DNA of 52,713 nt from Minisyncoccota bacterium (GTDB lineage Bacteria; Patescibacteriota; Minisyncoccia; Phycocordibacterales; SW-6-46-9): positions 1 through 52,713 of the forward strand of contig JBBDUG010000004.1 in assembly GCA_040904025.1 (NCBI GenBank), read 5' to 3'. Under the pieces are notes generated by a model. That model was not told where the DNA came from. It did not search any database and saw nothing but the letters and a program-made list of their open reading frames with translations. This document shows, piece by piece, positions 7,877-43,932 of the stretch. Position numbers and translations under genes: made by a program. The first letter of the stretch is position 1. Each line of letters begins with the position of its first letter.

Positions 7877-8599
7877 ATGCAGCTTATACCAGTCAAAACA
7901 AAACGGTTTGAACCACCACAGGATGATCTTATCTCAGAAATCGATACTGTTCTCGAAGAGAGGATACAAGATGGAGATGTGCTTGTTGTAACCTCAAAGG
8001 TGGTCTCAATCCATGAGGGGAGATGTACCCCCGTTGAAGGAGTAGAAAAAGAAGAGTTAGTACGTGATGAAGCTGATCTCTATATAAATGAAGTTGATAG
8101 TAGATGGCCAATCGTACTAAAAGACAATGCATTTCTTGTTGGTGCGGGTATAGATGAAAGTAATGCAGATGAACATTACATCCTTCTTCCAAAGAATCCC
8201 TTTGAAAGTGCAGAGCGGATTTATTCGTATATACAGAGTAGATTCAAACTCAAGGATATAGGCGTCTTGGTTGTAGACTCTCATTCAATCCCACTGAGAT
8301 ACGGAACTGTGGGTGTTGCGCTCGGATGGTGGGGTTTTGAACCGGTCACGCATTTTACCGGAAAGCCAGATTTGTTTGGGCGCTCTGCGCGATTTTCGCG
8401 TATCAATGTGGCTGATGCACTCGCCGTATCTGCTGTCTTTCTTATGGGGGAGATGGATGAACAAACTCCATTGTGTATTGCGCGCGATATACCACATATC
8501 GAATTTACCGCTCGAGACACATCAGGAAATCTCTTTATCCCTCACAGAGAGGATATCTATTGGCCACTTATAAAACGATTCTATGAAAGCGACAATTAA
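7877..8599 (+). CDS. CofE-family (F420-0:gamma-glutamyl ligase-like) protein
   Basis: GDVLVVTSKVVSIHEGR, GAGIDESN, GVLVVDSHS..RYGTVGVALG and GKPDLFGR...VADALAVSAVFLMGE all match the conserved blocks of archaeal CofE as I recall them. Confidence 0.75.
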   Translation: MQLIPVKTKRFEPPQDDLISEIDTVLEERIQDGDVLVVTSKVVSIHEGRCTPVEGVEKEELVRDEADLYINEVDSRWPIVLKDNAFLVGAGIDESNADEHYILLPKNPFESAERIYSYIQSRFKLKDIGVLVVDSHSIPLRYGTVGVALGWWGFEPVTHFTGKPDLFGRSARFSRINVADALAVSAVFLMGEMDEQTPLCIARDIPHIEFTARDTSGNLFIPHREDIYWPLIKRFYESDN

Positions 8600-8945
8600 A
8601 GTAAAAGACTTGTCTTTAGAGGTGTGTATTGGAGCATATCCAGAGGAGAGGGGAAAGAAACAGAAAATTCTCTGTGACATCGATATATCGACTGATATAT
8701 CAGATGTGGTGGTCTCTGATAATCTCGAGGACGCGTTGGATTATATGGAGCGTGTTAATGAAATACAGGAATATTTCTCACAACACTCACCACACCTTAT
8801 CGAGACTGCAGCGAGTGCAATTGCCGATATGTGTCTCAAGCATCCTCGTGCAGAACATGTACGGGTTCTACTCAAGAAACCCTCTATTCTTGAAGATGCA
8901 GAATATGCAGGGATTTGCATAGAAAAAGGAAAGGGGGTAGAGTAA
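8583..8945 (+). CDS. folB: Dihydroneopterin aldolase family protein
   Basis: 120 aa. CIGAYPEERGKKQKI..DIDIS...DNLEDALDY pattern typical of FolB/FolX. Overlaps the previous gene by 17 nt. Confidence 0.75.
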   Translation: MKATIKVKDLSLEVCIGAYPEERGKKQKILCDIDISTDISDVVVSDNLEDALDYMERVNEIQEYFSQHSPHLIETAASAIADMCLKHPRAEHVRVLLKKPSILEDAEYAGICIEKGKGVE

Positions 8946-9057
8946 GAATACATGCACATACATTGCATACCCACAACGTGGTTTAACTTCTTTTATTTTC
9001 TCAAACCTCGAGGAGGGTATGTTTCTGTTATCTAAGTGAGATAAATACAAAAGATGT

Positions 9058-9092
9058 TAGAAACCTGCCCTTCTCGGCAGGTTTTTCTGATT
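9058..9092 (+). terminator. Intrinsic terminator after folB
   Basis: AAACCTGCC / GGCAGGTTT hairpin followed by TTTCTGATTTTG. Confidence 0.65.
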
Positions 9093-9119
9093 TTGTTCTT
9101 TCAAAACGAGGACTATGCT

Positions 9120-9503
9120 ATGAATTCTCCCGTACAAACGAGTGTTGCGGAAATTGTTCCTGTGGAGGTTGTAATCTCTGTTTCTCGAGGATACTTTAAG
9201 GAAGAGCATACAATCCCCGAGATGGGAATGTATACCGTTCATGTAGACGACTGTGAGGTTGTAGTTGAGTATCCTGAGACGCACGATGAACTTGCTACTG
9301 TGGCCCGCACTCTCATTGACTATCTGCGGTGTGGAGGGTTCACAGTTATGTCTCGCAAGATCTCCAGTGAATCTCAAGAGCTTGGTGTATATATACACTC
9401 GTGGCTCTATACGCAGCTCTATGAAGAGAGATTAAGGGAGCTTACAGATGCACTCCGTGCATATGTCAAAGATTCTCCTCGTATCACTCTTCTGGGGGTG
9501 TAG
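9120..9503 (+). CDS. Hypothetical protein
   Basis: Internal ATG of ORF 9054..9503, downstream of the terminator and preceded by GAGGA. No motif recognised. Confidence 0.45.
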   Translation: MNSPVQTSVAEIVPVEVVISVSRGYFKEEHTIPEMGMYTVHVDDCEVVVEYPETHDELATVARTLIDYLRCGGFTVMSRKISSESQELGVYIHSWLYTQLYEERLRELTDALRAYVKDSPRITLLGV

Positions 9504-9532
9504 CCAACCATATTATGTGGTTGGCTTTTTTA
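9502..9532 (+). terminator. Intrinsic terminator
   Basis: AGCCAACCA (9502-9510) / TGGTTGGCT (9518-9526) followed by T6. Confidence 0.65.
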
Positions 9533-10030
9533 TTCCCGCTCCAGATTTACCCAGGTGTACTTGATTCCTTCATGCTCACCCTCCTTTCTAAATGTCTCCT
9601 TTGTGAATTCAGAATAGTCGGGGAAGAATGTATCTCCTTCTTTATCTGAATCTACAAGCATGAGATAGAGTCGTTGTGTTTGGGGGAGTGCTTGTGTATA
9701 TATCTTTTCTCCTCCGAAGATAAAGATCTCTTCATTATCTTCTTCCCGCGCCCTATCAAGCGCGTCCTTAAGAGAGTGTGCAAGGATTGCTCCTGGAGCA
9801 CTATATTTCTCATTACGAGTCAGGACGATATTTGTACGACCGGGGAGTGGGCGATATTTCTCCGGGATAGATTCCCAGGTTTTTCGGCCCATGATGAGTG
9901 GGTGACCCATGGTGATCTTTTTGAGTCGTTTGTGGTCATCGGGGATACGCCACAGCAGGTCGTTGTCTTTTCCGAGTGCCCGTGTGTTTTCTCCGATGGC
10001 TGCAATCGCAGATATAATTGGTGTATTCAT
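9530..10030 (-). CDS. folA: Dihydrofolate reductase
   Basis: 166 aa. IAAIGENTRALGKDNDLLWRIPDDHKRLKKITMGHPLIMGRKTWESIP matches the DHFR signature. Confidence 0.9.
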   Translation of the reverse strand: MNTPIISAIAAIGENTRALGKDNDLLWRIPDDHKRLKKITMGHPLIMGRKTWESIPEKYRPLPGRTNIVLTRNEKYSAPGAILAHSLKDALDRAREEDNEEIFIFGGEKIYTQALPQTQRLYLMLVDSDKEGDTFFPDYSEFTKETFRKEGEHEGIKYTWVNLERE

Positions 10031-10079
10031 ATCACTACTATATACTACACATACTATTGGTTGTAACTAGATTTGTTGT

Positions 10080-10754
10080 ATGAGTCATACGTATGAAATA
10101 GAGATAAAAAGCTTGTTGGGGTCTGAGGAGAATGCAAAAGCATTAAAGGAACAACTGAATGAGAAAGAGGTAGAGGCTGTTGGTACTCATTCTCAGTTGA
10201 ACCACTATTTTAATTCTCCTGGAGATCTCTCTGAATTAGAGAAAGAAATCCTTTCTCATATTCCCGAAGAGCGCAGAGATGCACTACGAAAGATTATTGA
10301 AGAAGGAGAAGACCATTCAGTGCGTACTCGTGAAGCTGATGGAACAGTTCTCTTTATCATCAAAGCCTCTATTGATGAGGGGAGTAGCGCAAATACAGTC
10401 TCTCGCATTGAATTTGAAGAGGAGGTAGACATGTCACTTGATGAGCTGGATCAACTTCTTCTCGATTCTGGCTTGACGTATCAGGCAAAATGGTCTCGAG
10501 AGCGAGAAGAGTTTCGCTTAGATGATACAAATATTACAATAGATAAGAATGCGGGGTATGGATACCTTGCGGAATTTGAAAAAGTAGTAGAGGATGAAGA
10601 AAAGGTTCCAGAAGTGAGATCTGACCTTGCCCGTCTCATGGATGAGTTGGGTGTTGAGGAGCTTTCTCAAGATCGATTAGAGCGCATGTTTGCGCACTAT
10701 AACGAGAATTGGGAGGAGTATTATGGTACGGACAAAATATTTGTAATTGAGTAG
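10080..10754 (+). CDS. CYTH-domain (triphosphate tunnel metalloenzyme / CyaB-like) protein
   Basis: N-terminal EIEIK (ExExK) signature; size and acidic composition are consistent. Confidence 0.55.
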   Translation: MSHTYEIEIKSLLGSEENAKALKEQLNEKEVEAVGTHSQLNHYFNSPGDLSELEKEILSHIPEERRDALRKIIEEGEDHSVRTREADGTVLFIIKASIDEGSSANTVSRIEFEEEVDMSLDELDQLLLDSGLTYQAKWSREREEFRLDDTNITIDKNAGYGYLAEFEKVVEDEEKVPEVRSDLARLMDELGVEELSQDRLERMFAHYNENWEEYYGTDKIFVIE

Positions 10755-10756
10755 AT

Positions 10757-11335
10757 ATGTTTCTATCCGATGTAGATATAAAAAAAGCGCTTGAAAATGA
10801 AGAGATCATTATCGATCCCTTCAAAGAGGATCAGTTGGGGGTTGCAAGCTATGATGTGACACTCGGTAGTGAATTTGAGGTTGTTGATCGGCATCAAGTG
10901 CAGGCATCTGATCCGGCAAAAGGCGAGTATCCGGATACACGAACATTTCTCGTTAAAGACGAGGACCATTTTGTTTTGCATCCGGGAGAGAATATTCTCG
11001 GAAAGCAGCGTGAATTTATCGGTACGGATAACAAGCATTTGATACTTCTCTCGGGCAAGTCTTCTTTAGCCCGTGTTGGATTGGTTGTGCACAACACAGC
11101 AATGCTCTTCAATCCCGGTCATAAGTTCTACCCCACATTTGAGCTTGTTAACACATCAAATGTTCCTATCATTCTGCGTCCCGGTATGGAGATCGCACAA
11201 CTTCTCTTTGCACGTCTGACTTCTGAGACATCACAGCAGTATGAAAAGGTGGGGCGGTATGGAAGAGAGAATTCAAACCATTTTGTACCCAAAAAGGAGA
11301 TTACAAAAGATAAGAAAGGTATATATGGCAAATAA
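10757..11335 (+). CDS. dcd: dCTP deaminase family protein
   Basis: 192 aa. N-terminal MFLSD.DI......II.DPF......ASYD.TLG pattern and the position before thyA. Confidence 0.8.
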   Translation: MFLSDVDIKKALENEEIIIDPFKEDQLGVASYDVTLGSEFEVVDRHQVQASDPAKGEYPDTRTFLVKDEDHFVLHPGENILGKQREFIGTDNKHLILLSGKSSLARVGLVVHNTAMLFNPGHKFYPTFELVNTSNVPIILRPGMEIAQLLFARLTSETSQQYEKVGRYGRENSNHFVPKKEITKDKKGIYGK

Positions 11336-12305
11336 GACACATCCAGAGTATCAATATCTCGATCTCCTGCGGAATATACAAGAGAATGGAGTGAAGAATA
11401 TTGATGAGGGGACAGGGGCTGTCTCCTGGTCTCTCTTTGGTCCCCAAATGCGTTTTGATCTCCAGAACGGCTTTCCACTACTCACCACTAAAAAGGTGTA
11501 TTGGAGGGGGGTTCTACACGAACTCTATTGGTTTTTTGCGGGGATGACGAACATTAAATATCTGGTGGATAATAATGTACATATATGGGACGACTATCCA
11601 TATAAGATTTACATGGAAAAGGTGAAGAAGGGGGATGAAGAAGAGCTGAGTAAGGAAGAATTTATCGAAAAAATATCCTCAGACGATACATTTGCAGAGA
11701 AGCACGGTGAACTCCCTCGTATATACGGAGAGATGTGGCGGAATTGGCCGACTAAAGACGGAAGGGGAGTTGATCAACTTGAATGGGTAATTAATGAATT
11801 GCGGGAAGACCCGCATGCGCGCAATGCAATTGTAACGTCTTGGAATCCTGAATATCTCTATGCTATGGCAAAGCCTGAAGAGGCAAGTCGGTTTCCTATC
11901 TGTCACAATATGTATCAGATGAGTGTGAAAGGGGGTAAGCTACATTTAAAGTTGTATCAACGTTCAGCTGATATGTTTTTAGGCGTGCCGTTTAATATAG
12001 CTAGTTATGCACTCCTTGCGCATATTGTGGCTCAGATTCTTGATTTAGAGGTTGGAGATTTTGTACATACATTTGGAGATGCACATATATATGATAATCA
12101 CATGGATCAGGTGACAGAACAGCTCTCACGAGAACCGAAACCATTCTCCACTCTCTCTATTGATGATTCGGTTAAGGAGATAGGGGACTTCACACCTGAT
12201 ATGGTAAATCTTGAAGGATATGAACACCACGATGTTCTTCGTGGGGAATTGACTGTTGCTGGTGGTGTGAAGGAGCGTGATCTTGAGAAAGATAATGAAG
12301 AATAA
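11325..12305 (+). CDS. thyA: Thymidylate synthase (ThyA type, long form with insert)
   Basis: Start at the internal ATG 11325 (MANKTHPEYQYLDLL). Catalytic FPICHNMYQ and RSADMFLGVPFNIASYALL motifs. 11-nt overlap with dcd. Confidence 0.9.
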   Translation: MANKTHPEYQYLDLLRNIQENGVKNIDEGTGAVSWSLFGPQMRFDLQNGFPLLTTKKVYWRGVLHELYWFFAGMTNIKYLVDNNVHIWDDYPYKIYMEKVKKGDEEELSKEEFIEKISSDDTFAEKHGELPRIYGEMWRNWPTKDGRGVDQLEWVINELREDPHARNAIVTSWNPEYLYAMAKPEEASRFPICHNMYQMSVKGGKLHLKLYQRSADMFLGVPFNIASYALLAHIVAQILDLEVGDFVHTFGDAHIYDNHMDQVTEQLSREPKPFSTLSIDDSVKEIGDFTPDMVNLEGYEHHDVLRGELTVAGGVKERDLEKDNEE

Positions 12306-12921
12306 TAAAAAAATTGAAGCCCTTGAGTCTCTCTTAGTCAAACTCTATGAGGAACATAAAGAGAAACTCCTTTTTCATGGATGGTCTCATATAGAGTTTG
12401 TTCGCGCAAAAGCCCTTGAGTTTGCCCCAGAACTCAATGCAGATTTGTTTTTAGTTGAATCTGCTGCTTTAGTTCATGATCTGGACTATATTGATAAAGA
12501 GGGGAAGCGAAAAGGAGAGAATTTGCGGAAGAAGATTCTTTCAAATGCCGGGTATGGTGATGAAGAAAAAGAGCGTATTGAGGAAATAGTCCATAATGCA
12601 CATATTGGGAACCAGAAGGAAGGCATGAGTAATGAATCAAAGGCACTAGCTGATGGTGATAATCTCTTTAAAGTGCTTCCCTTCACACCCATTTTCTTTG
12701 CACACAAATATATTGAGGAGCAAGATACGGATATAAAAGAGCTTATGGAAAAGATCCTCGATGATCAGCAGGAAAAGATCGAGAATGGAACCTTCTTTTA
12801 TTCCAACACAGCACGTCAGAAATATTTACATTGGGCTGAGACAAACATTGGGATTTGGATTAATATGAAGGAGTGCTTTGATGACCCGGACATAGTAAAA
12901 CTTATTTCTTCTATTTCATGA
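12295..12921 (+). CDS. HD-domain phosphohydrolase
   Basis: HGWSHI ... ALVHDLDY (H..HD motif). The ATG overlaps the thyA stop region. Confidence 0.6.
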   Translation: MKNNKKIEALESLLVKLYEEHKEKLLFHGWSHIEFVRAKALEFAPELNADLFLVESAALVHDLDYIDKEGKRKGENLRKKILSNAGYGDEEKERIEEIVHNAHIGNQKEGMSNESKALADGDNLFKVLPFTPIFFAHKYIEEQDTDIKELMEKILDDQQEKIENGTFFYSNTARQKYLHWAETNIGIWINMKECFDDPDIVKLISSIS

Positions 12922-12968
12922 TCTGATACAGCTACAATCCTCTTATTCATCTAACTGTAGCTTTATCT

Positions 12969-14234
12969 ATGGACTACTCACATATACAAAAACAAGACAA
13001 GAAGTCATACGAGGCAATTATGGGGGAAGAGAAGCGTCAGGCCGAAGGCCTGGAACTTATCCCCTCAGAGAATTACGTATCTCTTGCAGTGCGTGAAGCA
13101 CTCGCCACCCCTTTCACCAACAAGTATTCAGAGGGGTATCCCGGTCGGAGATACTATGGCGGGCAGGAGTATACGGATGCAATTGAAACATTAGCGATAG
13201 AGCGGGCGAAGAAGCTCTTTGGAGCGGGGTTTGTGAATGTACAGCCACTCTCCGGTGCGCCGGCTAATATTGCGGCATATTTTGCACTCTGTGAGCCGGG
13301 AGATACGATTCTCGGTATGGATCTCTCCCATGGCGGACATCTCACTCATGGTCATCCAGTTACAGCGATGACTGATGTGTTTCGATTTGTGCGGTACAAG
13401 ATGAAAGACGTGGAGACAGGAGAGATCGACTATGATGCACTTCGGGAAGTAGCACGCAAAGAGAAGCCTAAACTCATTCTTGCAGGTTTTTCTGCATATT
13501 CTCGCGAACTTGACTACAACGCGTTTGTTGAAATTGCTCGTGAGGTTGGCGCATACACAATGATGGATGCAGCGCATATTGCCGGATTGATTGCTGCTGG
13601 TGTACTTGCTAACCCATTTGATGCCGGATTCGATATTGTTACCACCACAACACACAAAACACTACGTGGACCGCGGGGTGGTATGATCATGACTCGCGAT
13701 GATGAAGATATTGCACGGCGGATAGATAAGGCAATCTTTCCGGGGTTGCAGGGCGGTCCGCATATGAACGTGGTTGCAGCAAAGGCGGTGGCATTTGGTG
13801 AGGCACTTGATCCATCATTCAAAGAATATGCATCTCAAGTGCTTTTGAATGCAAAAGCAATGGAGAGAGTGTTTTTGAAGCGGGGTGTGCGTCTCATCGG
13901 TGGTGGAACAGATAATCATCTAATTCTTGCTGATGTCTTCGGCTCACTCGATATCACCGGAGCTCGTGCTGAAGAGGTGCTTGATGAGGTTGGGATAACA
14001 TTAAACAAGAATGTTATCGCTGATGACCCTCGCAAACCTCTTGATCCCTCCGGGATTCGTTTCGGAACTCCTGCTATAACTACTCGGGGATTTGGAGAGG
14101 AAGAGTGTGAAAAAGTAGCAGAATGTATGGTGGATGTACTTGAGAGCCCGGATGATGGGGATGTAAGAAGACGTATATCAGAAGAAATACAAGGCCTCGC
14201 AGAGGCGTTTCCCATTCCCGAGACATTTGTCTAG
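12969..14234 (+). CDS. glyA: Serine hydroxymethyltransferase
   Basis: 421 aa. SHGGHLTHG and TTTTHKTLRGPRGG (PLP lysine) motifs. Confidence 0.95.
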   Translation: MDYSHIQKQDKKSYEAIMGEEKRQAEGLELIPSENYVSLAVREALATPFTNKYSEGYPGRRYYGGQEYTDAIETLAIERAKKLFGAGFVNVQPLSGAPANIAAYFALCEPGDTILGMDLSHGGHLTHGHPVTAMTDVFRFVRYKMKDVETGEIDYDALREVARKEKPKLILAGFSAYSRELDYNAFVEIAREVGAYTMMDAAHIAGLIAAGVLANPFDAGFDIVTTTTHKTLRGPRGGMIMTRDDEDIARRIDKAIFPGLQGGPHMNVVAAKAVAFGEALDPSFKEYASQVLLNAKAMERVFLKRGVRLIGGGTDNHLILADVFGSLDITGARAEEVLDEVGITLNKNVIADDPRKPLDPSGIRFGTPAITTRGFGEEECEKVAECMVDVLESPDDGDVRRRISEEIQGLAEAFPIPETFV

Positions 14235-14963: not shown

Positions 14964-16652
14964 ATGATTCGTGATCAAATACAAGATTCACTAAAGAATA
15001 CAGATGTTGGCGAGATGGAGCTCGAACATCCTGAAGATATAGCACATGGAGACTTTGCTTCCAGTGTGGCTCTGAAGCGTGCCTCACAAGAGGGGGGTAA
15101 TCCGCGTGAGATAGCTCAAGATATAGTTGCCTCTCTTGAAGAGGAACTCCCATCCTCTATCGAGAAGGTAGAGATTGCAGGTCCCGGCTTTATCAACCTC
15201 TTTCTTTCTGCTGATATTCTGCGTGATGAGGTTGATGCTATCCGCTCAAAAGGTTCCGAATATGGATATATTGGAGGAGAAGAGAGTGAGAAAATTATTA
15301 TCGAATACACCGATCCCAATCCATTTAAGGTCTTTCATATTGGACATTTAATGTCCAATACAATTGGTGAGTCACTTAGTCGTCTGTTGGAGTTCTCTGG
15401 TGCAGAGGTATTGCGTGCTAACTACCAGGGTGATGTTGGTATGCACATTGCAATGGCGGTGTGGGGGGTGAGGCAATTAGAAGACGAAATGCCGGCAGGG
15501 AGTGATTCTCTTGAGAAGAGAGTGGACTTTTTGGGGCGTGCATATGCACACGGTGCGAAATTATATGAAGAGAACGATGAGATTCGGACAGAGATAGAGG
15601 CGGTGAACAAAAAAATATATGAAGGTGGTGATGAAGAGATCACCAATCTATATACATGGGGGCGGGAGATAAGTTTGGAGAAATTTGAATATCTCTATCA
15701 AATACTCGGGACGAAATTTGATAAATACTTTTTTGAGTCTGAGGTAGCTGATGCGGGGAAAGAAGTTGTCCTTGAAGGACTTGAGCGTGATATTTTCGAG
15801 CGTTCTGAAGGGGCGGTTGTATACAGGGGAGAGAAAGATGGGCTACACACACGTGTGTTTGTTAACTCACAAGGTATTCCAACATATGAAGCAAAAGAAC
15901 TTGCCCTGGCGCGGGAGAAGTATGAATGGGTGGAATATGATCGCTCTATTGTTGTCACCGCAAATGAGATAAATGAATACTTTAAAGTAGTTCTTTCTGC
16001 GATGAGCAAGCTGTTTCCAGATCTTGCAATGCGGACTGAACATGTCTCGCACGGCTTTCTCCGTCTTCCGACAGGGAAGATGTCATCGCGTACCGGTAAT
16101 ATTATCTCCGGCGAAGAACTTCTCGAGGAAGTTATCGCACGTACTGAGGCGAAAATGTCAGATCGTGATATTCCTAATGATGAGCGCGAGTTGATTGCGC
16201 GCAAGGTGGCGGTAGCGGCGATAAAGTACTCAATTTTAAAGCAGTCTGCCGGGAGTGACATTGTCTTTGATATTGAAAAATCTCTTTCATTTGAAGGTGA
16301 TTCAGGACCGTATTTGCAATATACATATGTGCGTACACAATCAGTGCTTGAGAAGGCACGAAATGAAGGGTATGAAATCGGTGGAGAAGCAGTAGGGGAA
16401 GTTACAGAAGTTGAACGGATGCTATATCGGTTTCCGGAGATTGTAGAGCGCTCATTGCATGAACGTAGTCCTCATTATGTTATCCGCTATCTTACCGATC
16501 TTGCTTCGTGCTTTAACTCATACTACGGATCGACACAAATCGTCTCTGATGAAGAGGGGGTTGGCTATCGTCTTGCACTGACTGATGCGGTGGGAGTGGT
16601 GTTAAAAAATGGTCTCTATCTTCTGGGGATAGAGACTGTTGATCGGATGTAG
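14964..16652 (+). CDS. argS: Arginyl-tRNA synthetase
   Basis: 562 aa. FKVFHIGHLMSN (HIGH) and GKMSSRTGN (KMSK-like) motifs, plus a DALR-type C-terminus. Confidence 0.93.
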   Translation: MIRDQIQDSLKNTDVGEMELEHPEDIAHGDFASSVALKRASQEGGNPREIAQDIVASLEEELPSSIEKVEIAGPGFINLFLSADILRDEVDAIRSKGSEYGYIGGEESEKIIIEYTDPNPFKVFHIGHLMSNTIGESLSRLLEFSGAEVLRANYQGDVGMHIAMAVWGVRQLEDEMPAGSDSLEKRVDFLGRAYAHGAKLYEENDEIRTEIEAVNKKIYEGGDEEITNLYTWGREISLEKFEYLYQILGTKFDKYFFESEVADAGKEVVLEGLERDIFERSEGAVVYRGEKDGLHTRVFVNSQGIPTYEAKELALAREKYEWVEYDRSIVVTANEINEYFKVVLSAMSKLFPDLAMRTEHVSHGFLRLPTGKMSSRTGNIISGEELLEEVIARTEAKMSDRDIPNDERELIARKVAVAAIKYSILKQSAGSDIVFDIEKSLSFEGDSGPYLQYTYVRTQSVLEKARNEGYEIGGEAVGEVTEVERMLYRFPEIVERSLHERSPHYVIRYLTDLASCFNSYYGSTQIVSDEEGVGYRLALTDAVGVVLKNGLYLLGIETVDRM

Positions 16653-16777
16653 TTAGACAGATTGGAGTATTGCAGTTTCTTCACTGAACAATTTTACCAC
16701 CCTATACTTTTTAAATATGCTTTTGTACGGGGCTTAATTCCTAGAAAGCAACGCGTTGCTATGCTAGAGTGGAATAC

Positions 16778-19700
16778 ATGTCTGGCGAGGAGAAAAAATC
16801 TGATATTTCCAAACGGGAAGAAGAGATACTTTCATTTTGGGAAGAGAATAATATTTTTGAAAAAACACTCGAGAAAACCGAGGGTGAGGAAGAATTTGTA
16901 TTCTATGACGGCCCGCCATTTGCAACTGGTCTGCCCCACTATGGTCATGTTCTACCGGGGACGATAAAGGATGTGATTCCACGATACAAAACAATGCGTG
17001 GATATTATGTTAAACGTCGTTGGGGGTGGGATTGCCATGGACTCCCTCTTGAGAATCAGGTGGAGAAAGAGCTTGGTATTGAAAACAAGCAGGGTATTGA
17101 AGAATATGGGATCGAGAAGTTTAATACAAAAGCGCGGAATTTTGTGCTCCGCTATGCTGATGATTGGCTGAAGATTATGCCGCGTACCGGACGGTGGGTG
17201 GATATGGACAATGACTATCGCACAATGGATGCTCCGTATACTGAATCTATCTGGTGGGCATTTAACAAACTATTTGAAGACAAGAATTTGTATGAAGGCT
17301 TTAAGCCGATGCATATTTGTCCGCGATGTGAGACACCGCTTTCAAACTTCGAGGTGAATCAGGGGTATACAGATATCAAAGATCTTTCTGTAACGGCAAA
17401 ATTCAAACTTGAAGATGAAGATGTATATGTACTTGCGTGGACAACAACGCCGTGGACATTCCCCGGCAATATGGCGCTTGCAGTTAATCCAGAGCTTGAG
17501 TATGTAAAAGTGAAGGCGACCGGAGATGATGAAGAAGAGGCTGTGTTTATCCTCGCTAAAGAAACACTCGATGATGTTATGGAGGAGTATGAATATGAGA
17601 TCCTCGGGGATATTGCAGTAAAGGATCTTGTGGGGAGATCATACGAACCTCTTTTTGACTATTTCACAGATGCAGATATCGACGGCAAGGAAAATGCGTG
17701 GAAGATATATCCAGCAGATTTTGTAACAACAGAAGAGGGGACAGGGGTTGTACACATTGCACCGGCGTTTGGTTCAGACGATCTCTCTCTTGCACAGGAG
17801 CATGATATTCCAGTTGTGCACCATGTGGCGATGGACGGCGTCTTTACTCCGGCGGTAGAGGACTTTAAGGGGATGCATGTAAAGCCAAAAGATGAAGGGG
17901 ATGATGAGGCGCACATGCAGACTGATATAGAGATTATAAAGTGGCTCTATCATCATAAAAAGCTTTTCTCTAAAAAGAAAATTACCCACTCATATCCGCT
18001 TTGCTGGCGTTGTGATACCCCCCTTATAAACTACGCGACGAATTCATGGTTCGTGAAAGCGGGTGAAATGAAAGATAAACTCCTTTCCGAGAATGAAGAT
18101 GTTCATTGGGTTCCTGAGGCGATAGGATCTGCTCGTTTTGGAGACTGGCTTGAAGGTGCGCGAGATTGGGCAATTTCTCGATTGCGATACTGGGGAGCAC
18201 CGCTTCCGGTATGGAAGAGTAAGTCTGGTGATACTGTTGAAGTTATCAGCTCCATTGAAGAGCTGAAGAGCAAAACAAAGAGTACTAATTCATATGTGAT
18301 TCTGCGGCATGGTGAGGCAGAGCATAATGTGAAGGGGGTTATCACTAATGATCCAAATGAAGAATACCCCCTTACCGACAAAGGAGAAGAGCATTCTCGA
18401 AAGGCAGCTAAAGATCTGGGGGATATTGATCTCATTATTACCTCACCGGTACTACGTACAAAACAGACCGCCGATATTATCGCTCAAGAACTCGGATTAT
18501 CCGATGATAAGGTTGTTGTTGAGCCACGTATTGGTGAGATAGATCCGGGAGAGTATGAGGGTATTGATATTGGAGAATATGTCAAAAAGATGGGGTATAG
18601 AACGGGTAATTTTGACCATCGACCGGATGGTGGAGAATCATTTAATGATCTGCGCAGACGTGCAGGGGCATGTTTGTATGATATAGATCAGAAATACGAG
18701 GGGAAGCGCATACTGTTTGTAACACACTCCGGAACTGCATGGATGCTCTTTTCCGCTGCACATGGTCTTGATGATGAGATGACACTCAAGGTACATGAAG
18801 ATCCACAGTCTTTTATAAATCCCGGAGAATTCAAAGAGGTTGATTTTGCACCACTACCACATGATGAGTTATTTCGTCTTGATCTTCATCGCCCATACAT
18901 TGATGAGGTCACGTGGAAAAATGAAGACGGCGAGGAGATGCATCGTATCCCTGACGTCTTTGATTGCTGGTTTGAGTCTGGGTCTATGCCATATGCATCT
19001 CAGCACTATCCATTTAATAAAGAGGGGTTTGATCCGGAGAAGGGGCTGTATTACCCCGCTGACTTTATCGCCGAGGGGTTAGACCAGACACGGGGATGGT
19101 TTTATTCACTTCTTGTGCTTGGTGTTGGGCTCTTTGGAAAGGCTCCGTACAAGAATGTGATTGCAAATGGACTGATTCTTGCCGAAGACGGCAAGAAGAT
19201 GTCGAAGCGTTTGGGTAATTATCCTCCACTTGAGGAGGTACTGGATGAATATGGTGCAGACGCACTCCGCTTTTTCCTCATCAATTCTCCTGCAGTTCGC
19301 GCAGGTGCAGTTAACTTTTCAAAGAAGGGGATAGATGAAGTTGTGAAGAAGGTAATGCTGCGTCTTCTGAATACATATACATTTCTTGATATGTACACCG
19401 ACGGAGAGGCAGATGTTGAGTCCGGAGAGAGTGAGCATATATTAGATAGATGGATAGTAGCGCGACTCTATGGACTGAGAGAAGAGGTAACTACAAATCT
19501 AGATCGATATGAGCTCGACCGTGCAGCGCGGCCATTTGTTGACTTTGTTGACGATCTCTCCACATGGTATCTCAGACGTTCTCGTGACCGCCTGAAGGAT
19601 GATGGGGTTGATAAGGAGCATGCAAAAGCGACACTTCGCTTTGTGCTCAAGGAAATCGCAAAACTTATCGCACCATTCATGCCGTTTCTTGCAGAGGATC

Positions 19701-20275
19701 TATATGAGAAGCTCGGAGGAGAGAAAGAGAGCGTACATCTTGAAGAATGGCCGGAATATGGAGAAGAAGTTGATACTGAACTTATTGAACTTATGCGTCG
19801 GACGCGACATATTGTCTCCGAAGCTCTTGATGCACGTTCTCAAGAGGGGATGAAAGTGAGACAGCCACTTTCTCGACTCTCTGTATCTCAAGAGAAATAT
19901 GATCTCCCTGATAGTTTTAAAGAAGATCTCATTGATCTGATTAAAGGAGAGGTGAATGTTAAAGAGGTTGTGTTCTCTGCGGATGTAGAGGATGTAGAAC
20001 TGGACTTTGAACTAACCGATGAGCTTATTCAAGAAGGAATTGCACGTGAACTTATTCGTGCAATTCAGAGTCTACGGAAAAAAGAAGGACTTGATCCCGG
20101 GGATGAAGTGGTGCTTGTAATACAAACCGATGAAGCGGGGCGAGGTGTAATAGAGGCATTTCGTGATGAAATCACTTCAACTGCTTCGTTGAAGGATGTT
20201 GAATATAAAGAGGTTGATGATGGAAAGGTACTTGAGCTGGATGATGTGACGTTTGAGTTTCGGATTGATTTTTAA
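16778..20275 (+). CDS. ileS: Isoleucyl-tRNA synthetase (type 2) carrying an inserted histidine-phosphatase domain
   Basis: PPFATGLPHYGHVL (HIGH), WAISRLRYWGAPLPVW, HRPYIDEV and KMSKRLGN motifs. The ATG at 16778 lies within ORF 16769..20275. Confidence 0.93.
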   Translation: MSGEEKKSDISKREEEILSFWEENNIFEKTLEKTEGEEEFVFYDGPPFATGLPHYGHVLPGTIKDVIPRYKTMRGYYVKRRWGWDCHGLPLENQVEKELGIENKQGIEEYGIEKFNTKARNFVLRYADDWLKIMPRTGRWVDMDNDYRTMDAPYTESIWWAFNKLFEDKNLYEGFKPMHICPRCETPLSNFEVNQGYTDIKDLSVTAKFKLEDEDVYVLAWTTTPWTFPGNMALAVNPELEYVKVKATGDDEEEAVFILAKETLDDVMEEYEYEILGDIAVKDLVGRSYEPLFDYFTDADIDGKENAWKIYPADFVTTEEGTGVVHIAPAFGSDDLSLAQEHDIPVVHHVAMDGVFTPAVEDFKGMHVKPKDEGDDEAHMQTDIEIIKWLYHHKKLFSKKKITHSYPLCWRCDTPLINYATNSWFVKAGEMKDKLLSENEDVHWVPEAIGSARFGDWLEGARDWAISRLRYWGAPLPVWKSKSGDTVEVISSIEELKSKTKSTNSYVILRHGEAEHNVKGVITNDPNEEYPLTDKGEEHSRKAAKDLGDIDLIITSPVLRTKQTADIIAQELGLSDDKVVVEPRIGEIDPGEYEGIDIGEYVKKMGYRTGNFDHRPDGGESFNDLRRRAGACLYDIDQKYEGKRILFVTHSGTAWMLFSAAHGLDDEMTLKVHEDPQSFINPGEFKEVDFAPLPHDELFRLDLHRPYIDEVTWKNEDGEEMHRIPDVFDCWFESGSMPYASQHYPFNKEGFDPEKGLYYPADFIAEGLDQTRGWFYSLLVLGVGLFGKAPYKNVIANGLILAEDGKKMSKRLGNYPPLEEVLDEYGADALRFFLINSPAVRAGAVNFSKKGIDEVVKKVMLRLLNTYTFLDMYTDGEADVESGESEHILDRWIVARLYGLREEVTTNLDRYELDRAARPFVDFVDDLSTWYLRRSRDRLKDDGVDKEHAKATLRFVLKEIAKLIAPFMPFLAEDLYEKLGGEKESVHLEEWPEYGEEVDTELIELMRRTRHIVSEALDARSQEGMKVRQPLSRLSVSQEKYDLPDSFKEDLIDLIKGEVNVKEVVFSADVEDVELDFELTDELIQEGIARELIRAIQSLRKKEGLDPGDEVVLVIQTDEAGRGVIEAFRDEITSTASLKDVEYKEVDDGKVLELDDVTFEFRIDF
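18281..18877 (+). other. In-frame histidine phosphatase (PGAM/SixA superfamily) domain inside ileS, about 199 aa
   Basis: VILRHGEAEHN (RHG catalytic motif), ITSPVLRTKQTA, DPGEYEG and VTHSG (second His). Lies between the conserved WISR.RYWG and LHRPYID blocks of IleRS. Confidence 0.8.
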
Positions 20276-20338
20276 TACAGAAAACGGTAGTTTTAGGTTG
20301 AACAACGTTATTTTAGATCATAGAACGAGGATATAGTG

Positions 20339-20800
20339 ATGAATGAACCTCTCGCCGCCTTCTTTTTTGTCGTTTTAATAGCGATACTCCTCCTTCTCGT
20401 TATTCGAAAGAGTAATGTCAGGTCAACGAAGAAAACGAAGCCGGTTGCTAATGTGCTGCTCTCTTACACGTGTCACAAGAAGGATTTTAGTTCGGAAGGG
20501 GATCTCCTTAGAATAGCGCATTGGATTAAGGTCTACGGCCTCGCGATTGCTGTTGCCGAGAAGATCTCTGGGAAATGGGTATACTACGAGGATGGCACAA
20601 TGCGGCGAGGTCACGAAGACGGTCTCTTGAATTGGGATGCCTCTATTAGTATTGATGAACAGTGGGGTGACCTTTATTATCTTGCTGATATTTTAGTGCG
20701 AGACAAGAGAGAGTTTGTCCGGAACATCCATATTCACATTAAAGATAGGGGAATAAGGTATCTCTCTCATATCTCTTCTAAAGAGCTTACGACCTTTTAG
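20339..20800 (+). CDS. Hypothetical N-terminally membrane-anchored protein
   Basis: ORF track; hydrophobic N-terminus. GAGGA 8 nt upstream of the start. Confidence 0.5.
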   Translation: MNEPLAAFFFVVLIAILLLLVIRKSNVRSTKKTKPVANVLLSYTCHKKDFSSEGDLLRIAHWIKVYGLAIAVAEKISGKWVYYEDGTMRRGHEDGLLNWDASISIDEQWGDLYYLADILVRDKREFVRNIHIHIKDRGIRYLSHISSKELTTF

Positions 20801-20871
20801 GCTTCTCGTTTGTAGTCAAGTCTCTCAGAAATGGGAGGCTTTTTCTTTTTTAAGTACGCTATAATACCTCT

Positions 20872-42688: not shown

Positions 42689-43273
42689 ATGAGAAGCAAC
42701 CACAAGGGTTTTGTGGCCTACTCCAAAGAGCAAGGCGGTGAACATGTCTGGTACGTCAAGGTTGATGAACCTCGTTCTCCCCACCACCTGAAGCCTTGTG
42801 TTGTTGTCAATAGGAATGACAACTTCACTCTTCAGCCCGGTTTGGAGGTCGAGTTCATACTTGATAATCCAGAGGGCACCGATAAGCTCTTTGCACACGC
42901 TGTTGCTCCTCTGATCTCTCGTGTTGAGGGAGAAGCGGAAAGGCGTGTGGATGAGAACAGTGACCCGAAATACGAACTTGTGATCGTAGTGACCAGGTTT
43001 CGTGATGGACGGATACGCGCTGAACTCATCAACTGCATTTCTCGTGAGCAGATCGAGGAAGAATGGCATCGTGAAATGCCTGGTGAAGCAGAAGTAATCG
43101 GCTATCTGCCGTTTACGGAAGCTTTCCAAGGTGTTAATTACGATCACATTCATGTTGATCCGAATGCCAAAGATGCACTGCTTTCACTTGCAGGTGTCGA
43201 TGGGATCCAAGAAGCATTCGAGAGTCTGCTAACGAGGGTGTACAACCTTAACCGAAATGAAAACAAAGACTGA
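42689..43273 (+). CDS. Hypothetical protein, possibly with a degenerate N-terminal cold-shock-like OB module
   Basis: KGFVAY....GGEHVWYVKV ... LQPGLEVEF loosely resembles CSD motifs. C/G-rich third codon positions by eye. Confidence 0.5.
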   Translation: MRSNHKGFVAYSKEQGGEHVWYVKVDEPRSPHHLKPCVVVNRNDNFTLQPGLEVEFILDNPEGTDKLFAHAVAPLISRVEGEAERRVDENSDPKYELVIVVTRFRDGRIRAELINCISREQIEEEWHREMPGEAEVIGYLPFTEAFQGVNYDHIHVDPNAKDALLSLAGVDGIQEAFESLLTRVYNLNRNENKD

Positions 43274-43280
43274 TAAAACC

Positions 43281-43694
43281 ATGTCTTTCCCTAATGGTAA
43301 CTGTGCAGTAATGCGTCATGCTGATGATCGAAGAGGAGGTATTACTGATACTTCGATCCAAGTTCTTCAACGAGTCGCTAAAGATCTGCGTGAGCAGATT
43401 GGCGAAAAGGAGGTGAGAATTTTTCATTCACCGCTTCGTCGCGCGATGTGGACCGCTCAGAATCTTGCCAAGTTTCTCAGGCAAGAGAGCAACACCGCGA
43501 TCATAGCCGGACCTCTGGAATGGCTTTATTGTGGTGAAGAAGCTATCGCACGGCACATTGATGAGTTTGAGGAACCGGAGGACTTCGTAGTCCTCATCTC
43601 TCATCAGCCCGATCTGGAACACTTTCTATGTGTTAGAAGTGGGGTTACGAATTGCTCCCTCTTTGCGAGGGACTTTCGGATAAAGGGTCACTAG
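43281..43694 (+). CDS. SixA-like histidine phosphatase superfamily protein (alternative start at 43257)
   Basis: AVMRHADD (RH. motif), HSPLRRAMWTAQ, ISHQPDLEHF. Confidence 0.7.
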   Translation: MSFPNGNCAVMRHADDRRGGITDTSIQVLQRVAKDLREQIGEKEVRIFHSPLRRAMWTAQNLAKFLRQESNTAIIAGPLEWLYCGEEAIARHIDEFEEPEDFVVLISHQPDLEHFLCVRSGVTNCSLFARDFRIKGH

Positions 43695-43826: not shown

Positions 43827-43861
43827 GGCACGAAGTACACAAAGTGCACAATGTTAACTTT

Positions 43862-43932
43862 TGCGGGGGCCGGATTTGAACCGACGTCTGGAGGTTATGA
43901 GCCTCCCGAGGTACCGCTCCTCCACCCCGCGA
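43862..43932 (-). tRNA. tRNA-Met (CAT), probable initiator tRNA-fMet; CCA not encoded
   Basis: The reverse complement folds as a cloverleaf: acceptor CGCGGGG/CCCCGCA with a C1:A72 mismatch, D stem GAGG/CCTC, anticodon stem GGAGG/CCTCC with loop CTCATAA, T arm GTCGG-TTCAAAT-CCGGC. Acceptor and T arms are identical to E. coli tRNA-fMet as I recall it. Only 2 of the 3 usual G:C pairs are present next to the anticodon loop. Confidence 0.85.

What the first reader, a model, noticed from the sequence alone, without database searches (positions are those of the whole stretch)
18281..18877. Complete histidine-phosphatase (PGAM/SixA superfamily) domain inserted in frame into isoleucyl-tRNA synthetase
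Seen in sequence: the ileS ORF is uninterrupted at 1168 aa on the track. Between the conserved IleRS blocks DWAISRLRYWGAPLPVW and LDLHRPYIDEV sits a segment of about 199 aa. That segment has the full catalytic signature of the histidine phosphatase superfamily: VILRHGEAEHN, SPVLRTKQTA, DPGEYEG and VTHSG. Established knowledge: in type-2 IleRS (for example Thermus) these two blocks are separated by only a few tens of residues. Inference: this is a domain insertion that creates a bifunctional or regulated synthetase. The phosphatase might act on a nucleotide-like by-product or inhibitor (Ap4A-type dinucleotides or phosphorylated antibiotic mimics), or on tRNA or protein. I cannot tell which. A second, free-standing SixA-like phosphatase lies at 43281..43694.
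Basis: partly seen in the sequence, partly recalled or inferred. Interest (0 to 1): 0.75.

Follow-up and report, generated by a model that had tools for sequence, protein, structure and literature searches.

The report
Phosphatase domain nested inside isoleucyl-tRNA synthetase
The isoleucine tRNA-charging enzyme of this ultra-small (Patescibacteria/CPR) bacterium carries a complete phosphatase with intact catalytic residues built into one of its surface loops; hundreds of related species share this design, relatives keep the same phosphatase as a separate gene right next to the synthetase gene, and I found no published study of it.

Summary
ORF 16769..20275 (+, 1168 aa) is a type-2 IleRS with all its motifs. 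Residues 505-692 are a branch-1 histidine phosphatase (His_Phos_1, E = 7e-34), where other IleRS have a loop of about 5-10 residues in the CP3 subdomain.

It is not a one-off or an assembly artefact. All 120 nearest IleRS relatives carry it, as do at least 124 of the 149 best 50%-identity clusters and the 80 best GTDB species representatives. R513, H514, R563, E623 and H653 are invariant in 157/157 homologues and E590 in 154/157. AlphaFold models are confident.

The main new result is that the closest free-standing relatives lie immediately upstream of an insert-less ileS (argS-phosphatase-ileS). Of 80 metagenome loci, 36 were nested, 36 were adjacent, 2 were one gene away, 2 were elsewhere and 4 were too short. 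The adjacent state is ancestral in a rooted tree, and the nested state has its own derived linker.

The protein is most likely bifunctional, combining a normal IleRS with an active small-substrate phosphomonoesterase. The substrate is unknown. Eight literature searches found no description.

I rate it a new variant of a known kind, interest 0.62.

The parts
16769..20275 (+). ileS: type-2 (eukaryote-like) isoleucyl-tRNA synthetase with a nested phosphatase, 1168 aa (alternative ATG start at 16778)
   Evidence: ORF; TIGR00392 883.8 bits against a cutoff of 621; the best PDB relatives are type-2/eukaryotic IleRS at E = 1e-195 to 1e-219, against 1e-68 to 1e-94 for type-1; full-length AlphaFold model pLDDT 90.4, pTM 0.84
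16937..16948 (+). HIGH-type signature (HYGH, aa 57-60) of the synthetic active site
   Evidence: conserved across 157 homologues
17438..17458 (+). CP1 editing-domain Thr-rich motif WTTTPWT (aa 224-230)
   Evidence: 155-157 of 157 conserved
18158..18196 (+). CP2-CP3 linker ARDWAISRLRYWG (aa 464-476). The homologous yeast segment lines the pocket for the tRNA 3' end and reveromycin
   Evidence: sequence; role of the yeast segment 453-465 from PMC7955072
18197..18280 (+). First half of the CP3 subdomain (aa 477-504), ending in helix 496-502
   Evidence: aligns to CP3 of Candida IleRS (473-534) and yeast IleRS (459-526); secondary structure
18281..18844 (+). Nested branch-1 histidine phosphatase domain (aa 505-692)
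   Evidence: PF00300 E = 6.6e-34; AlphaFold model of the insert alone pLDDT 93.7, pTM 0.91; Foldseek matches PspA, CobC, PhoE, GpgP and dPGM at TM 0.73-0.80
18305..18313 (+). RHG motif: R513, nucleophile H514, G515
   Evidence: R and H in 157/157, G in 151/157; only the Gly varies (Ala/Pro/Ser) among the species representatives examined
18455..18457 (+). R563, second phosphate-binding arginine
   Evidence: 157/157
18536..18538 (+). E590, predicted general acid in the PhoE-like motif E-I-x-x-G-x-[WFY]-E-G
   Evidence: 154/157; aligns with the EIHLGDWEG motif of PhoE
18635..18637 (+). E623 of the G-G-E motif
   Evidence: 157/157
18725..18727 (+). H653, second catalytic histidine
   Evidence: 157/157
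18845..18877 (+). Linker specific to the nested architecture, FAPLPHDELFR (aa 693-703), joining the phosphatase back to CP3
   Evidence: P697 92% and N699 80% in nested forms; these columns are gaps in insert-less IleRS, and free-standing phosphatases end before them
18878..20272 (+). Rest of IleRS: second half of CP3 (LDLHRPYIDE), second Rossmann half (DCWFESG), KMSKR (19196-19210), anticodon-binding domain, and the type-2 C-terminal domain DUF5915
14964..16652 (+). argS (ArgRS), conserved upstream neighbour in both the nested and the adjacent-gene architectures
   Evidence: Pfam; synteny

Best explanation
This is a real, old and widespread nested-domain enzyme. A type-2 IleRS carries a complete branch-1 histidine phosphatase of the PhoE/CobC/PspA type, with intact catalytic residues, inside its CP3 subdomain. 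SHOWN: the IleRS part keeps every synthetic and editing motif. The phosphatase keeps the full catalytic set (R513, H514, R563, E590, H653) across hundreds of species. The junctions are short and confidently modelled. In related Patescibacteria the same phosphatase subfamily is a separate gene of about 190 aa directly upstream of an insert-less ileS (argS-phosphatase-ileS, gaps from -19 to about 140 nt), and that state is ancestral in a rooted IleRS tree. INFERRED: the neighbouring gene was moved once into the CP3 loop, between the two halves of the CP3 zinc knuckle, which created a shared derived linker. The polypeptide then has two independent chemistries. One is ordinary Ile-tRNA(Ile) synthesis and editing. 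The other is hydrolysis of a phosphomonoester through a phospho-His514 intermediate. This subfamily is almost always found beside or inside ileS, and the pairing survives an inversion of ileS, so the phosphatase probably works together with IleRS at fixed 1:1 dosage and location. The retained helical cap and the structural neighbours suggest a small phosphorylated ligand rather than a macromolecule. The substrate has not been identified.
For: Domain identity and boundaries. Location in CP3. Catalytic residues R513, H514, R563, E623 and H653 invariant in 157/157 and E590 in 154/157, although the inserts are only 37% identical to the window on average; the species representatives checked in detail also keep them. 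Insert length is held at 180-212 aa. Confident fold alone (pLDDT 93.7, pTM 0.91) and in context (pLDDT 90.4, pTM 0.84; junction blocks 92-95; five residues between the CP3 helix and strand beta-1). Structural neighbours are small-molecule phosphatases and mutases. Spread: all of the 120 best IleRS relatives; 124 of the 149 best representative clusters have IleRS body homology; the 80 best GTDB species representatives. Co-inheritance of insert and body: r = 0.64, 0 of 300 permutations reach it. Adjacent-gene state. Quantified on 80 metagenome loci: 33+3 nested, 25+11 adjacent, 2 one gene away, 2 elsewhere, 4 too short. Ancestral state and clustering of architectures. Derived junction and the zinc knuckle flanking the site.
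Against: No activity has been measured for either domain. Functional coupling rests on gene neighbourhood and fusion only. The same syntenic block also holds genes with no evident link to IleRS (recO, a DUF11 protein), so adjacency may explain only where the DNA came from. Tandem arrays of 2 to 4 phosphatase copies in some IleRS argue against a precise geometric relation to the IleRS active site. Two of three insert-less IleRS sampled independently of the phosphatase (Kuenenbacteria, Minisyncoccia) have no phosphatase nearby, so IleRS does not need it in general. The NJ tree requires 5-7 architecture changes and its deep nodes are weak, so a single origin rests mainly on the shared linker.
Confidence: 0.65

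Rival explanations
1. Uncoupled passenger. The phosphatase is a housekeeping metabolic enzyme (for example a phosphoserine, sugar-phosphate or nucleotide phosphatase) that happened to lie next to ileS in a frozen syntenic block and was captured by a local rearrangement into a tolerant surface loop. It keeps its own unrelated job, and IleRS only supplies expression.
For: CP3 is the IleRS subdomain whose topology varies most between lineages and it is solvent-exposed. The block argS-x-ileS-x-recO-DUF11 is conserved as a whole although its genes are functionally unrelated. Tandem arrays of 2-4 copies are tolerated. The nearest structures act on small metabolites. A thymidylate/one-carbon cluster (DHFR, dCTP deaminase, ThyA, SHMT) lies just upstream, and the best Foldseek hit is a phosphoserine phosphatase.
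Against: Of 76 determinable loci of this subfamily, 74 are inside ileS, beside it or one gene away, and only 2 are elsewhere. The pairing survives an inversion of ileS. Gene overlaps and 1-7 nt gaps suggest translational coupling. No nested lineage examined has lost the catalytic residues. The PspA equivalog model is far below its cutoff (48.9 bits against 350).
Confidence: 0.25
2. Built-in repair or immunity module. The phosphatase removes an inhibitory phosphate from a macromolecule in the IleRS cycle, for example a 2'/3'-phosphate or pyrophosphate on the tRNA(Ile) CCA end, or a phosphorylated IleRS residue produced by a kinase toxin.
For: The insert follows, by about 30 residues, the CP2-CP3 linker that lines the pocket for the tRNA 3' end. 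Some relatives add a RimL/MccE-type GNAT inside the same IleRS, a domain type known to detoxify aminoacyl-nucleotide antibiotics (established knowledge), which hints that defensive modules accumulate on this enzyme. Some members of the superfamily (SixA, PGAM5, Sts-1) act on proteins (established knowledge).
Against: The insert is not basic: net charge is -1.6 per 100 aa, the same as the body. It keeps the helical cap of small-substrate members and is closest to PspA, CobC and PhoE, not to SixA (34.3 bits against 74.5). No member of the superfamily is known to me to heal RNA ends. It is unclear why only IleRS would need this.
Confidence: 0.08
3. Catalytically dead structural or docking domain. 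The phosphatase fold is kept only as a scaffold, for tRNA or partner binding or to stabilise CP3 after loss of the zinc knuckle.
For: The window's protein has lost the CP3 zinc knuckle. In vertebrates CP3 serves as a protein docking surface. L077 and L079 have deletions in the cap region.
Against: All catalytic residues are invariant, while the rest of the insert evolves faster than the IleRS core. 38 of 64 nested forms still have the knuckle.
Confidence: 0.02
4. Assembly chimera, frameshift artefact or selfish element (intein-like).
For: None beyond the unusual length. The one relative from a noisy assembly (L001) is frameshifted.
Against: The same in-frame architecture occurs at the same site in hundreds of independent assemblies, including a closed chromosome (CP060229.1). 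Composition is uniform. Pfam finds no Hint/intein domain.
Confidence: 0

Closest known systems
Type-2 (eukaryote-like) IleRS, e.g. Thermus thermophilus 1ILE, Priestia megaterium IleRS2 8C8U, yeast 7D5C/8WND, Candida 6LDK, human 9W01
   Same: Overall architecture and all motifs: HIGH, KMSKS, the CP1 editing domain, the anticodon-binding domain and the DUF5915 C-terminal domain. E = 1e-195 to 1e-219. Many relatives keep a Thermus-like zinc knuckle in CP3.
   Different: About 190 residues of phosphatase plus an 11-residue linker sit where those enzymes have 5-10 residues in the middle of CP3. The window's protein has lost the knuckle cysteines.
Short branch-1 histidine phosphatases: PhoE (1H2E), CobC alpha-ribazole phosphatase (6NRU/6E4B), PspA phosphoserine phosphatase (4IJ5), GpgP (4QIH)
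   Same: The fold (TM 0.73-0.80), the size of about 190-210 aa, the RHG...R...E...H catalytic set, and the E-I-x-x-G-x-W-E-G-K motif shared with PhoE.
   Different: Only 20-25% identity. It falls below every NCBIfam equivalog cutoff, so it forms its own subfamily, found nested in ileS or beside it. The substrate is unknown.
Free-standing Patescibacteria phosphatases encoded upstream of ileS (e.g. P0270, P0260, the Portnoybacteria gene in L172)
   Same: The same subfamily: 35-47% identity, as close to the inserts as the inserts are to each other, with shared motifs including SHGDPLW and the terminal GELRxL strand.
   Different: They are separate polypeptides of 183-195 aa that lack the PLPHN linker, and the partner IleRS has an intact short CP3.
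IleRS with an N-acetyltransferase domain (NCBIfam NF040702, ileS_w_GNAT)
   Same: Another extra catalytic domain nested in a Patescibacteria IleRS. P0014 carries both the GNAT and the phosphatase.
   Different: A different fold, inserted at a different site (aa 285-415, in the editing-domain region). The window's protein has no GNAT (342 bits against a cutoff of 1999).
Bifunctional RNase H / acid phosphatase (Rv2228c type, NCBIfam PRK07238)
   Same: A CobC-like histidine phosphatase fused to a nucleic-acid enzyme. It is the second-best NCBIfam hit for the insert (76 bits).
   Different: It is an end-to-end fusion, not a nested one. The score is far below the cutoff of 326, and the partner enzyme is unrelated.
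Functional domains nested in class Ia synthetases (the CP1 editing domain; the leucine-specific domain of LeuRS) and CP3 as a docking surface (human IARS1-LARS1)
   Same: They set a precedent that insertions into the Rossmann-fold body can carry a catalytic or regulatory function (established knowledge), and that CP3 is exposed and used for partner contacts.
   Different: Those domains act on the aminoacylation cycle itself. Here the nested domain is a phosphomonoesterase, a chemistry with no known role in that cycle.

Membership tests
Isoleucyl-tRNA synthetase (TIGR00392), type 2 | Whole-protein score above the curated equivalog cutoff | tested here: met
   883.8 bits against 621.4, in two stretches around the insert
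Isoleucyl-tRNA synthetase (TIGR00392), type 2 | Class I signature motifs HIGH and KMSKS | tested here: met
   HYGH at aa 57-60 and KMSKR at aa 810-814, conserved in the family
Isoleucyl-tRNA synthetase (TIGR00392), type 2 | CP1 editing domain with the Thr-rich motif | tested here: met
   WTTTPWT at aa 224-230, 155-157 of 157 conserved
Isoleucyl-tRNA synthetase (TIGR00392), type 2 | Type-2 affiliation: closer to eukaryotic, Thermus and IleRS2 enzymes than to type-1; DUF5915 C-terminal domain | tested here: met
   PDB E-values 1e-195 to 1e-219 against 1e-68 to 1e-94; PF19302 hit
Isoleucyl-tRNA synthetase (TIGR00392), type 2 | Ile-specific aminoacylation of tRNA(Ile); being the only IleRS of the cell | not testable with these tools
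   Needs an enzyme assay and the complete genome; only 52.7 kb is available
Histidine phosphatase superfamily, branch 1 (PF00300) | Profile score above Pfam's gathering cutoff | tested here: met
   117.7 bits against 21.7, E = 6.6e-34
Histidine phosphatase superfamily, branch 1 (PF00300) | Catalytic core: RHG nucleophile His, two Arg, the acid Glu, the second His | tested here: met
   R513, H514, R563 and H653 in 157/157, E590 in 154/157; also kept in the species representatives checked in detail
Histidine phosphatase superfamily, branch 1 (PF00300) | Alpha/beta fold of the superfamily | tested here: met
   AlphaFold pLDDT 93.7; Foldseek probability 1.00 and TM 0.73-0.80 to many members
Histidine phosphatase superfamily, branch 1 (PF00300) | Phosphomonoesterase activity through a phospho-histidine intermediate | not testable with these tools
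   Requires an assay with an H514A control
Cofactor-dependent phosphoglycerate mutase (dPGM) | Score above the curated cutoffs of the dPGM models | tested here: not met
   TIGR01258 24.1 bits against 81.7; NF038349 81.5 bits against 225. The motif after the acid Glu is PhoE-like (E-I-x-x-G-x-Y-E-G). It differs from the E-R-H-Y-G motif of dPGM, which I recall from memory and did not align here.
SixA phosphohistidine phosphatase (TIGR00249) | Score above the equivalog cutoff | tested here: not met
   34.3 bits against 74.5 for the insert; 31.7 bits against 74.5 for ORF 43257..43694
CobC alpha-ribazole phosphatase / PspA phosphoserine phosphatase | Score above the equivalog cutoffs | tested here: not met
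   TIGR03162 74.7 bits against 162.9; NF045917 48.9 bits against 350. The resemblance is at fold level only.
IleRS with GNAT (NF040702) | Presence of an N-acetyltransferase domain; score above the cutoff | tested here: not met
   342 bits against 1999; no GNAT hit in Pfam
Intein or other self-splicing insert | Hint/intein domain and splice-junction residues | tested here: not met
   Pfam shows only His_Phos_1 across the insert. The residue after the conserved H-N of the linker is not Cys, Ser or Thr.

The most novel reading that the evidence does not exclude
The nested phosphatase is a third, functionally integrated catalytic site of the synthetase. It would be a phosphate-removing repair, quality-control or immunity activity acting on something in the IleRS cycle: a blocked tRNA(Ile) 3' end, a phosphorylated IleRS, or a phosphorylated inhibitor or ligand. 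It would have been recruited first as an operon partner and then welded into CP3. That would be a new kind of accessory chemistry for aminoacyl-tRNA synthetases, comparable in principle to the CP1 editing domain.
Probability: 0.15. Interest if true: 0.9.

Novelty: new variant of a known kind. Interest (0 to 1): 0.62.

Why it matters
Aminoacyl-tRNA synthetases are among the most conserved enzymes known. New catalytic domains inside their catalytic body are rare, and in the known cases such as the editing domains they reflect real functional needs. Here a phosphatase with intact catalytic residues has been kept beside or inside ileS across a very large radiation of ultra-small bacteria with minimal genomes, where little is dispensable. 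Both the separate-gene and the nested forms survive, so the system offers a natural experiment on how a neighbouring gene becomes a nested domain. It also offers a direct route to the function, by comparing the two-protein and one-protein versions. In practice the insertion seems to degrade automatic annotation: NCBI names the nested forms only 'class I tRNA ligase family protein'. That could make ileS look absent, or a phosphatase or 'PGAM' look present, in metabolic reconstructions of CPR genomes.

Tried and rejected
2. An insert-only alignment had no stretch conserved enough to seed the genome scan. I replaced it with an alignment spanning the C-terminal junction. As a consequence the figure of 595 relatives may include insert-less IleRS. 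Only the 80 best loci were checked, and one of them (L076) is masked by N runs.
3. The first word-indexed search with the insert found a single hit and wrongly suggested rarity. The full-length search and the exhaustive search corrected this.
4. A distance tree of inserts plus free-standing phosphatases is star-like and does not resolve direction.
5. A first IleRS tree without bootstrap placed an insert-less IleRS inside the nested clade. With bootstrap and an outgroup the deep nodes remain weak. I therefore rest single origin on the shared linker, not on topology.
6. Cluster look-ups gave no organism names for the adjacent-gene lineages.
7. Rfam found no leader or riboswitch near ileS. The promoter scan found fewer sites than shuffled sequence does.
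8. The mutase (dPGM), SixA, CobC and PspA assignments were rejected on curated cutoffs.
9. The intein and assembly-chimera readings were rejected.
10. A basic RNA-binding character was tested and not found.
11. Distances between the active sites could not be measured because model coordinates are not returned.
12. Eight literature searches found no description. Subscription-only papers are not covered.
Full report
**1. The observation**

The window contains one uninterrupted ORF at 16769..20275 on the + strand (1168 aa from GTG). An ATG at 16778 would give the 1165-aa product that is present in the protein collection. Pfam splits the class I synthetase domain around a His_Phos_1 match at residues 510-678. 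The insert alone scores 117.7 bits (E = 6.6e-34) against a gathering cutoff of 21.7. The whole protein passes the ileS equivalog model, 883.8 bits against 621.4. In alignments to solved human and yeast IleRS, query residues 501 and 705 correspond to chain residues 490 and 498, and query 504 and 704 correspond to 493 and 498. So about 200 residues replace a loop of 5-7. GC content and skew are uniform through the gene.

**2. Where the insert sits**

Structural papers define the CP3 subdomain as residues 473-534 in Candida IleRS and 459-526 in yeast IleRS. The insertion point aligns to residue 497 in Candida and 493 in yeast, which is the middle of CP3.

- CP3 is peripheral, and its topology differs between Candida, Thermus and Staphylococcus IleRS. 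In Thermus it holds a zinc-binding motif.
- In vertebrates CP3 is a docking surface for LARS1.
- The segment just before CP3 (ARDWxxSRxRYWG, window aa 464-476) lines the pocket that binds the tRNA 3' end and reveromycin in yeast.
- In many relatives the insert lies between two Cys pairs (for example WECSQC...[insert]...KCPKC), which look like the two halves of that zinc knuckle. The pattern is present in 15 of 16 insert-less and 38 of 64 nested IleRS. The window's protein has lost the cysteines.

**3. Whether the phosphatase is intact**

In a MAFFT alignment of 157 full-length homologues, R513, H514, R563, E623 and H653 are invariant. E590 is present in 154, R631 in 155, G515 in 151 and N520 in 149.

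This holds although the insert is on average only 37% identical to the window, against 51-65% for the synthetase body. It evolves about as fast as the C-terminal domain. Its length stays between 180 and 212 residues.

Among the 80 best GTDB species representatives the full-length insert is present. The only departures are Gly-to-Ala, -Pro or -Ser in RHG, two partial deletions of the cap region (L077, L079), and one locus masked by N runs.

AlphaFold models are confident for the insert alone (pLDDT 93.7, pTM 0.91) and for the whole protein (pLDDT 90.4, pTM 0.84). Junction blocks score 92-95, and only five residues separate the CP3 helix (496-502) from strand beta-1 of the phosphatase (508-513). 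The insert therefore appears rigidly embedded rather than loosely tethered.

Foldseek places it among the short branch-1 phosphatases and the mutases (PspA, CobC, PhoE, GpgP, dPGM) at TM 0.73-0.80 and 20-25% identity. No NCBIfam equivalog cutoff is reached: dPGM, SixA, CobC and PspA all fail. The motif after the acid Glu matches PhoE rather than the mutases. I conclude that this is a catalytically competent phosphomonoesterase belonging to a subfamily of its own.

The IleRS motifs HYGH, WTTTPWT and KMSKR are also conserved, and the enzyme is of type 2.

**4. How common it is**

A first word-indexed search with the insert returned only one hit, which was misleading.

- With the full protein, all 120 best hits (51-72% identity, about 1140-1230 aa) carry PF00300. 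They come from Paceibacterota/Parcubacteria-type Patescibacteria such as Campbell- and Zambryskibacteria.
- An exhaustive HMMER search of 1.84 billion representatives found 49 clusters at E <= 1e-30 and 705 at E <= 1e-10. Of the 149 best, 124 have IleRS body homology.
- A scan of GTDB species representatives returned 80 loci that all include the insert. Their names span Nomura-, Zambryski-, Taylor-, Wolfe-, Lloyd-, Adler-, Colwell-, Yanofsky- and Falkowbacteria and Minisyncoccia. One is a closed chromosome.
- Pairwise distances of the insert track those of the IleRS body (r = 0.64; none of 300 permutations reaches it), as expected for vertical co-inheritance.

The feature is therefore not an assembly artefact and not unique. 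Eight full-text searches found no paper that describes it.

**5. The key new finding**

Nine genuine free-standing proteins of about 190-210 aa are as similar to the inserts (35%) as the inserts are to each other (38%), and they share the inserts' signature motifs.

- Two of them (P0270, P0260) are encoded 1 and 7 nt upstream of an IleRS of 931 or 955 aa that has no insert. The neighbourhood is the same as in the window: argS-[phosphatase]-ileS-x-recO.
- A third (P0252) lies next to an insert-less ileS on the opposite strand.
- A fourth (P0249) follows argS at a contig end.
- These IleRS bridge the insertion point with 0-11 residues and keep the zinc knuckle.

I then scanned metagenome contigs with the free-standing cluster and classified the 80 best loci:

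| Arrangement | Loci |
|---|---|
| Nested in IleRS | 33, plus 3 probable |
| Within about 140 nt of an insert-less IleRS | 25, plus 11 cut by a contig end (2 convergent, the rest upstream on the same strand) |
| One gene away | 2 |
| Ample flank but no IleRS | 2 |
| Contig too short to judge | 4 |

So this phosphatase subfamily is almost always physically tied to ileS.

Sampling from the IleRS side gives a different view. All 120 nearest relatives of the insert-less IleRS lack PF00300. Of three named examples, the Portnoybacteria gene has an upstream phosphatase that overlaps the ileS start by 19 nt. The Kuenenbacteria and Minisyncoccia genes have no phosphatase nearby. Three states therefore exist: none, beside and nested.

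**6. Order of events**

I built an NJ tree of IleRS bodies (80 taxa, 776 columns) rooted on the most distant member. The root state is 'beside' in 100 of 100 bootstraps. The architectures are strongly clustered, with 5-7 parsimony changes against 14.8 for shuffled labels. They do not form a single clean split, and the deep nodes are weak.

Independently of topology, the nested forms share a derived junction: N507-x-Y (97%) and the linker F-x-P-L-P-H-N (P697 92%, N699 80%). This junction is absent from insert-less IleRS, and the free-standing proteins end before it.

I infer that the upstream gene moved once into CP3. The apparent extra changes could be tree error or exchange of ileS between lineages; this remains unresolved.

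**7. How it most likely works**

Shown: two intact sets of catalytic residues in one rigid polypeptide, and a conserved pairing of this phosphatase subfamily with ileS in three gene arrangements.

Inferred: the protein is bifunctional. It performs normal Ile-tRNA synthesis and editing, and it hydrolyses a phosphomonoester through phospho-His514. The pairing suggests that the two activities are functionally linked.

- The retained helical cap and the structural neighbours favour a small substrate.
- The insert is no more basic than the IleRS body, at -1.6 net charge per 100 residues for both. That gives no support to tRNA binding.
- Tandem arrays of two to four phosphatase copies, all with RHG, occur in some IleRS. 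This argues against a strict geometric coupling to the synthetic site.

The main rival is an unrelated housekeeping phosphatase captured from a frozen syntenic block. I cannot exclude it, because that block also holds recO and other genes with no evident link to IleRS.

**8. Verdict**

The finding is real. It is a new variant of a known kind: a synthetase with an accessory domain, here an active phosphatase nested in CP3 with a surviving two-gene precursor state. Interest is moderate to high at 0.62. The architecture is already visible in public domain annotations and its function is unknown, but the system is unusually tractable for finding out.

Noticed in passing
P0192 (1379 aa), P0169 (1087 aa), P0141 (1161 aa); related proteins, not in the window: Some IleRS carry the nested phosphatase as tandem arrays of 2, 2-3 and 4 diverged copies, and every copy has an RH[G/A/S/P] motif. 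P0192 is a complete IleRS; the other two may be cut by contig ends.
   Followed up: partly
P0014 (1325 aa) and P0184 (1066 aa); related proteins: P0014 has a RimL/MccE-type GNAT (PF13302) at aa 285-415 inside the editing-domain region, in addition to the phosphatase. NCBIfam has a dedicated model for IleRS with GNAT (NF040702). P0184 has a C-terminal GNAT and also a Pfam hit to an IS200-like Y1 transposase at aa 340-461 inside the IleRS.
   Followed up: partly
window 43257..43694 (+) and 43860..43932 (-): A 145-aa ORF has SixA-like motifs (RHA, SPLRRA..TA, SHQP) but scores below the curated cutoffs. It lies next to the only tRNA gene in the window, which has a CAU anticodon. ARAGORN calls it tRNA-Met, but it could equally be initiator tRNA or the lysidine-dependent tRNA-Ile2.
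   Followed up: partly
(names given by sources): NCBI names the nested-type proteins 'class I tRNA ligase family protein' or 'hypothetical protein', and names the insert-less relatives 'isoleucine--tRNA ligase'. The insertion seems to degrade automatic naming, which could distort metabolic or completeness surveys of CPR genomes.
   Followed up: no
window 16769..20275 and neighbouring genes: The window's IleRS is strongly acidic (net charge about -8 per 100 residues in both the insert and the body; family mean -1.6). ArgRS also looks rich in Asp and Glu. This may indicate an acidic proteome, for example a saline habitat.
   Followed up: no
window 9530..14234; L001 2951..6880: A thymidylate/one-carbon cluster lies directly upstream of argS-ileS: DHFR (9530..10030, -), a CYTH-domain protein (10080..10754), dCTP deaminase-like (10757..11335), thymidylate synthase (11241..12305) and SHMT (12969..14234). 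It is largely syntenic in L001.
   Followed up: partly
L001 (ENA ERZ1286166 contig_675), 8538..11782: The syntenic IleRS with insert on this 120-kb contig needs four frame shifts to be read. Thymidylate synthase, TatD and MetRS on the same contig are also split. This looks like a noisy (probably long-read) assembly rather than a set of pseudogenes.
   Followed up: partly
L014 (QYPD01000003.1) and many loci named 'uncultured Candidatus Saccharibacteria': A MAG labelled Spirochaetia carries a Patescibacteria-type nested IleRS on an 8.5-kb contig, which probably reflects bin contamination. The many 'Saccharibacteria' labels on third-party assemblies are doubtful, because all other named carriers are Parcubacteria-type lineages.
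   Followed up: no
L077 and L079 (GTDB representatives): Two nested phosphatases have deletions in the cap region between E590 and E623 (about 39 residues in L077) but keep all catalytic residues. These may be variants with a more open active site.
   Followed up: no
window 20336..20800 (+) and 20818..20841: A 154-aa ORF with no Pfam match and a hydrophobic N-terminus follows ileS, and an ORF of similar size and position follows ileS in related loci (L085, L087). A strong terminator-like hairpin follows it. ileS and this ORF may form one transcription unit.
   Followed up: no
L089 and L090 (free-standing relatives P0235, P0213); L082 (P0226): The three free-standing relatives that are not next to ileS sit in a sugar context (ROK kinase, HAD hydrolase, GlmS), in an inositol-phosphate synthase / AdoMet synthase context, and between secY and adk. 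They form the more distant group in the phosphatase tree.
   Followed up: partly
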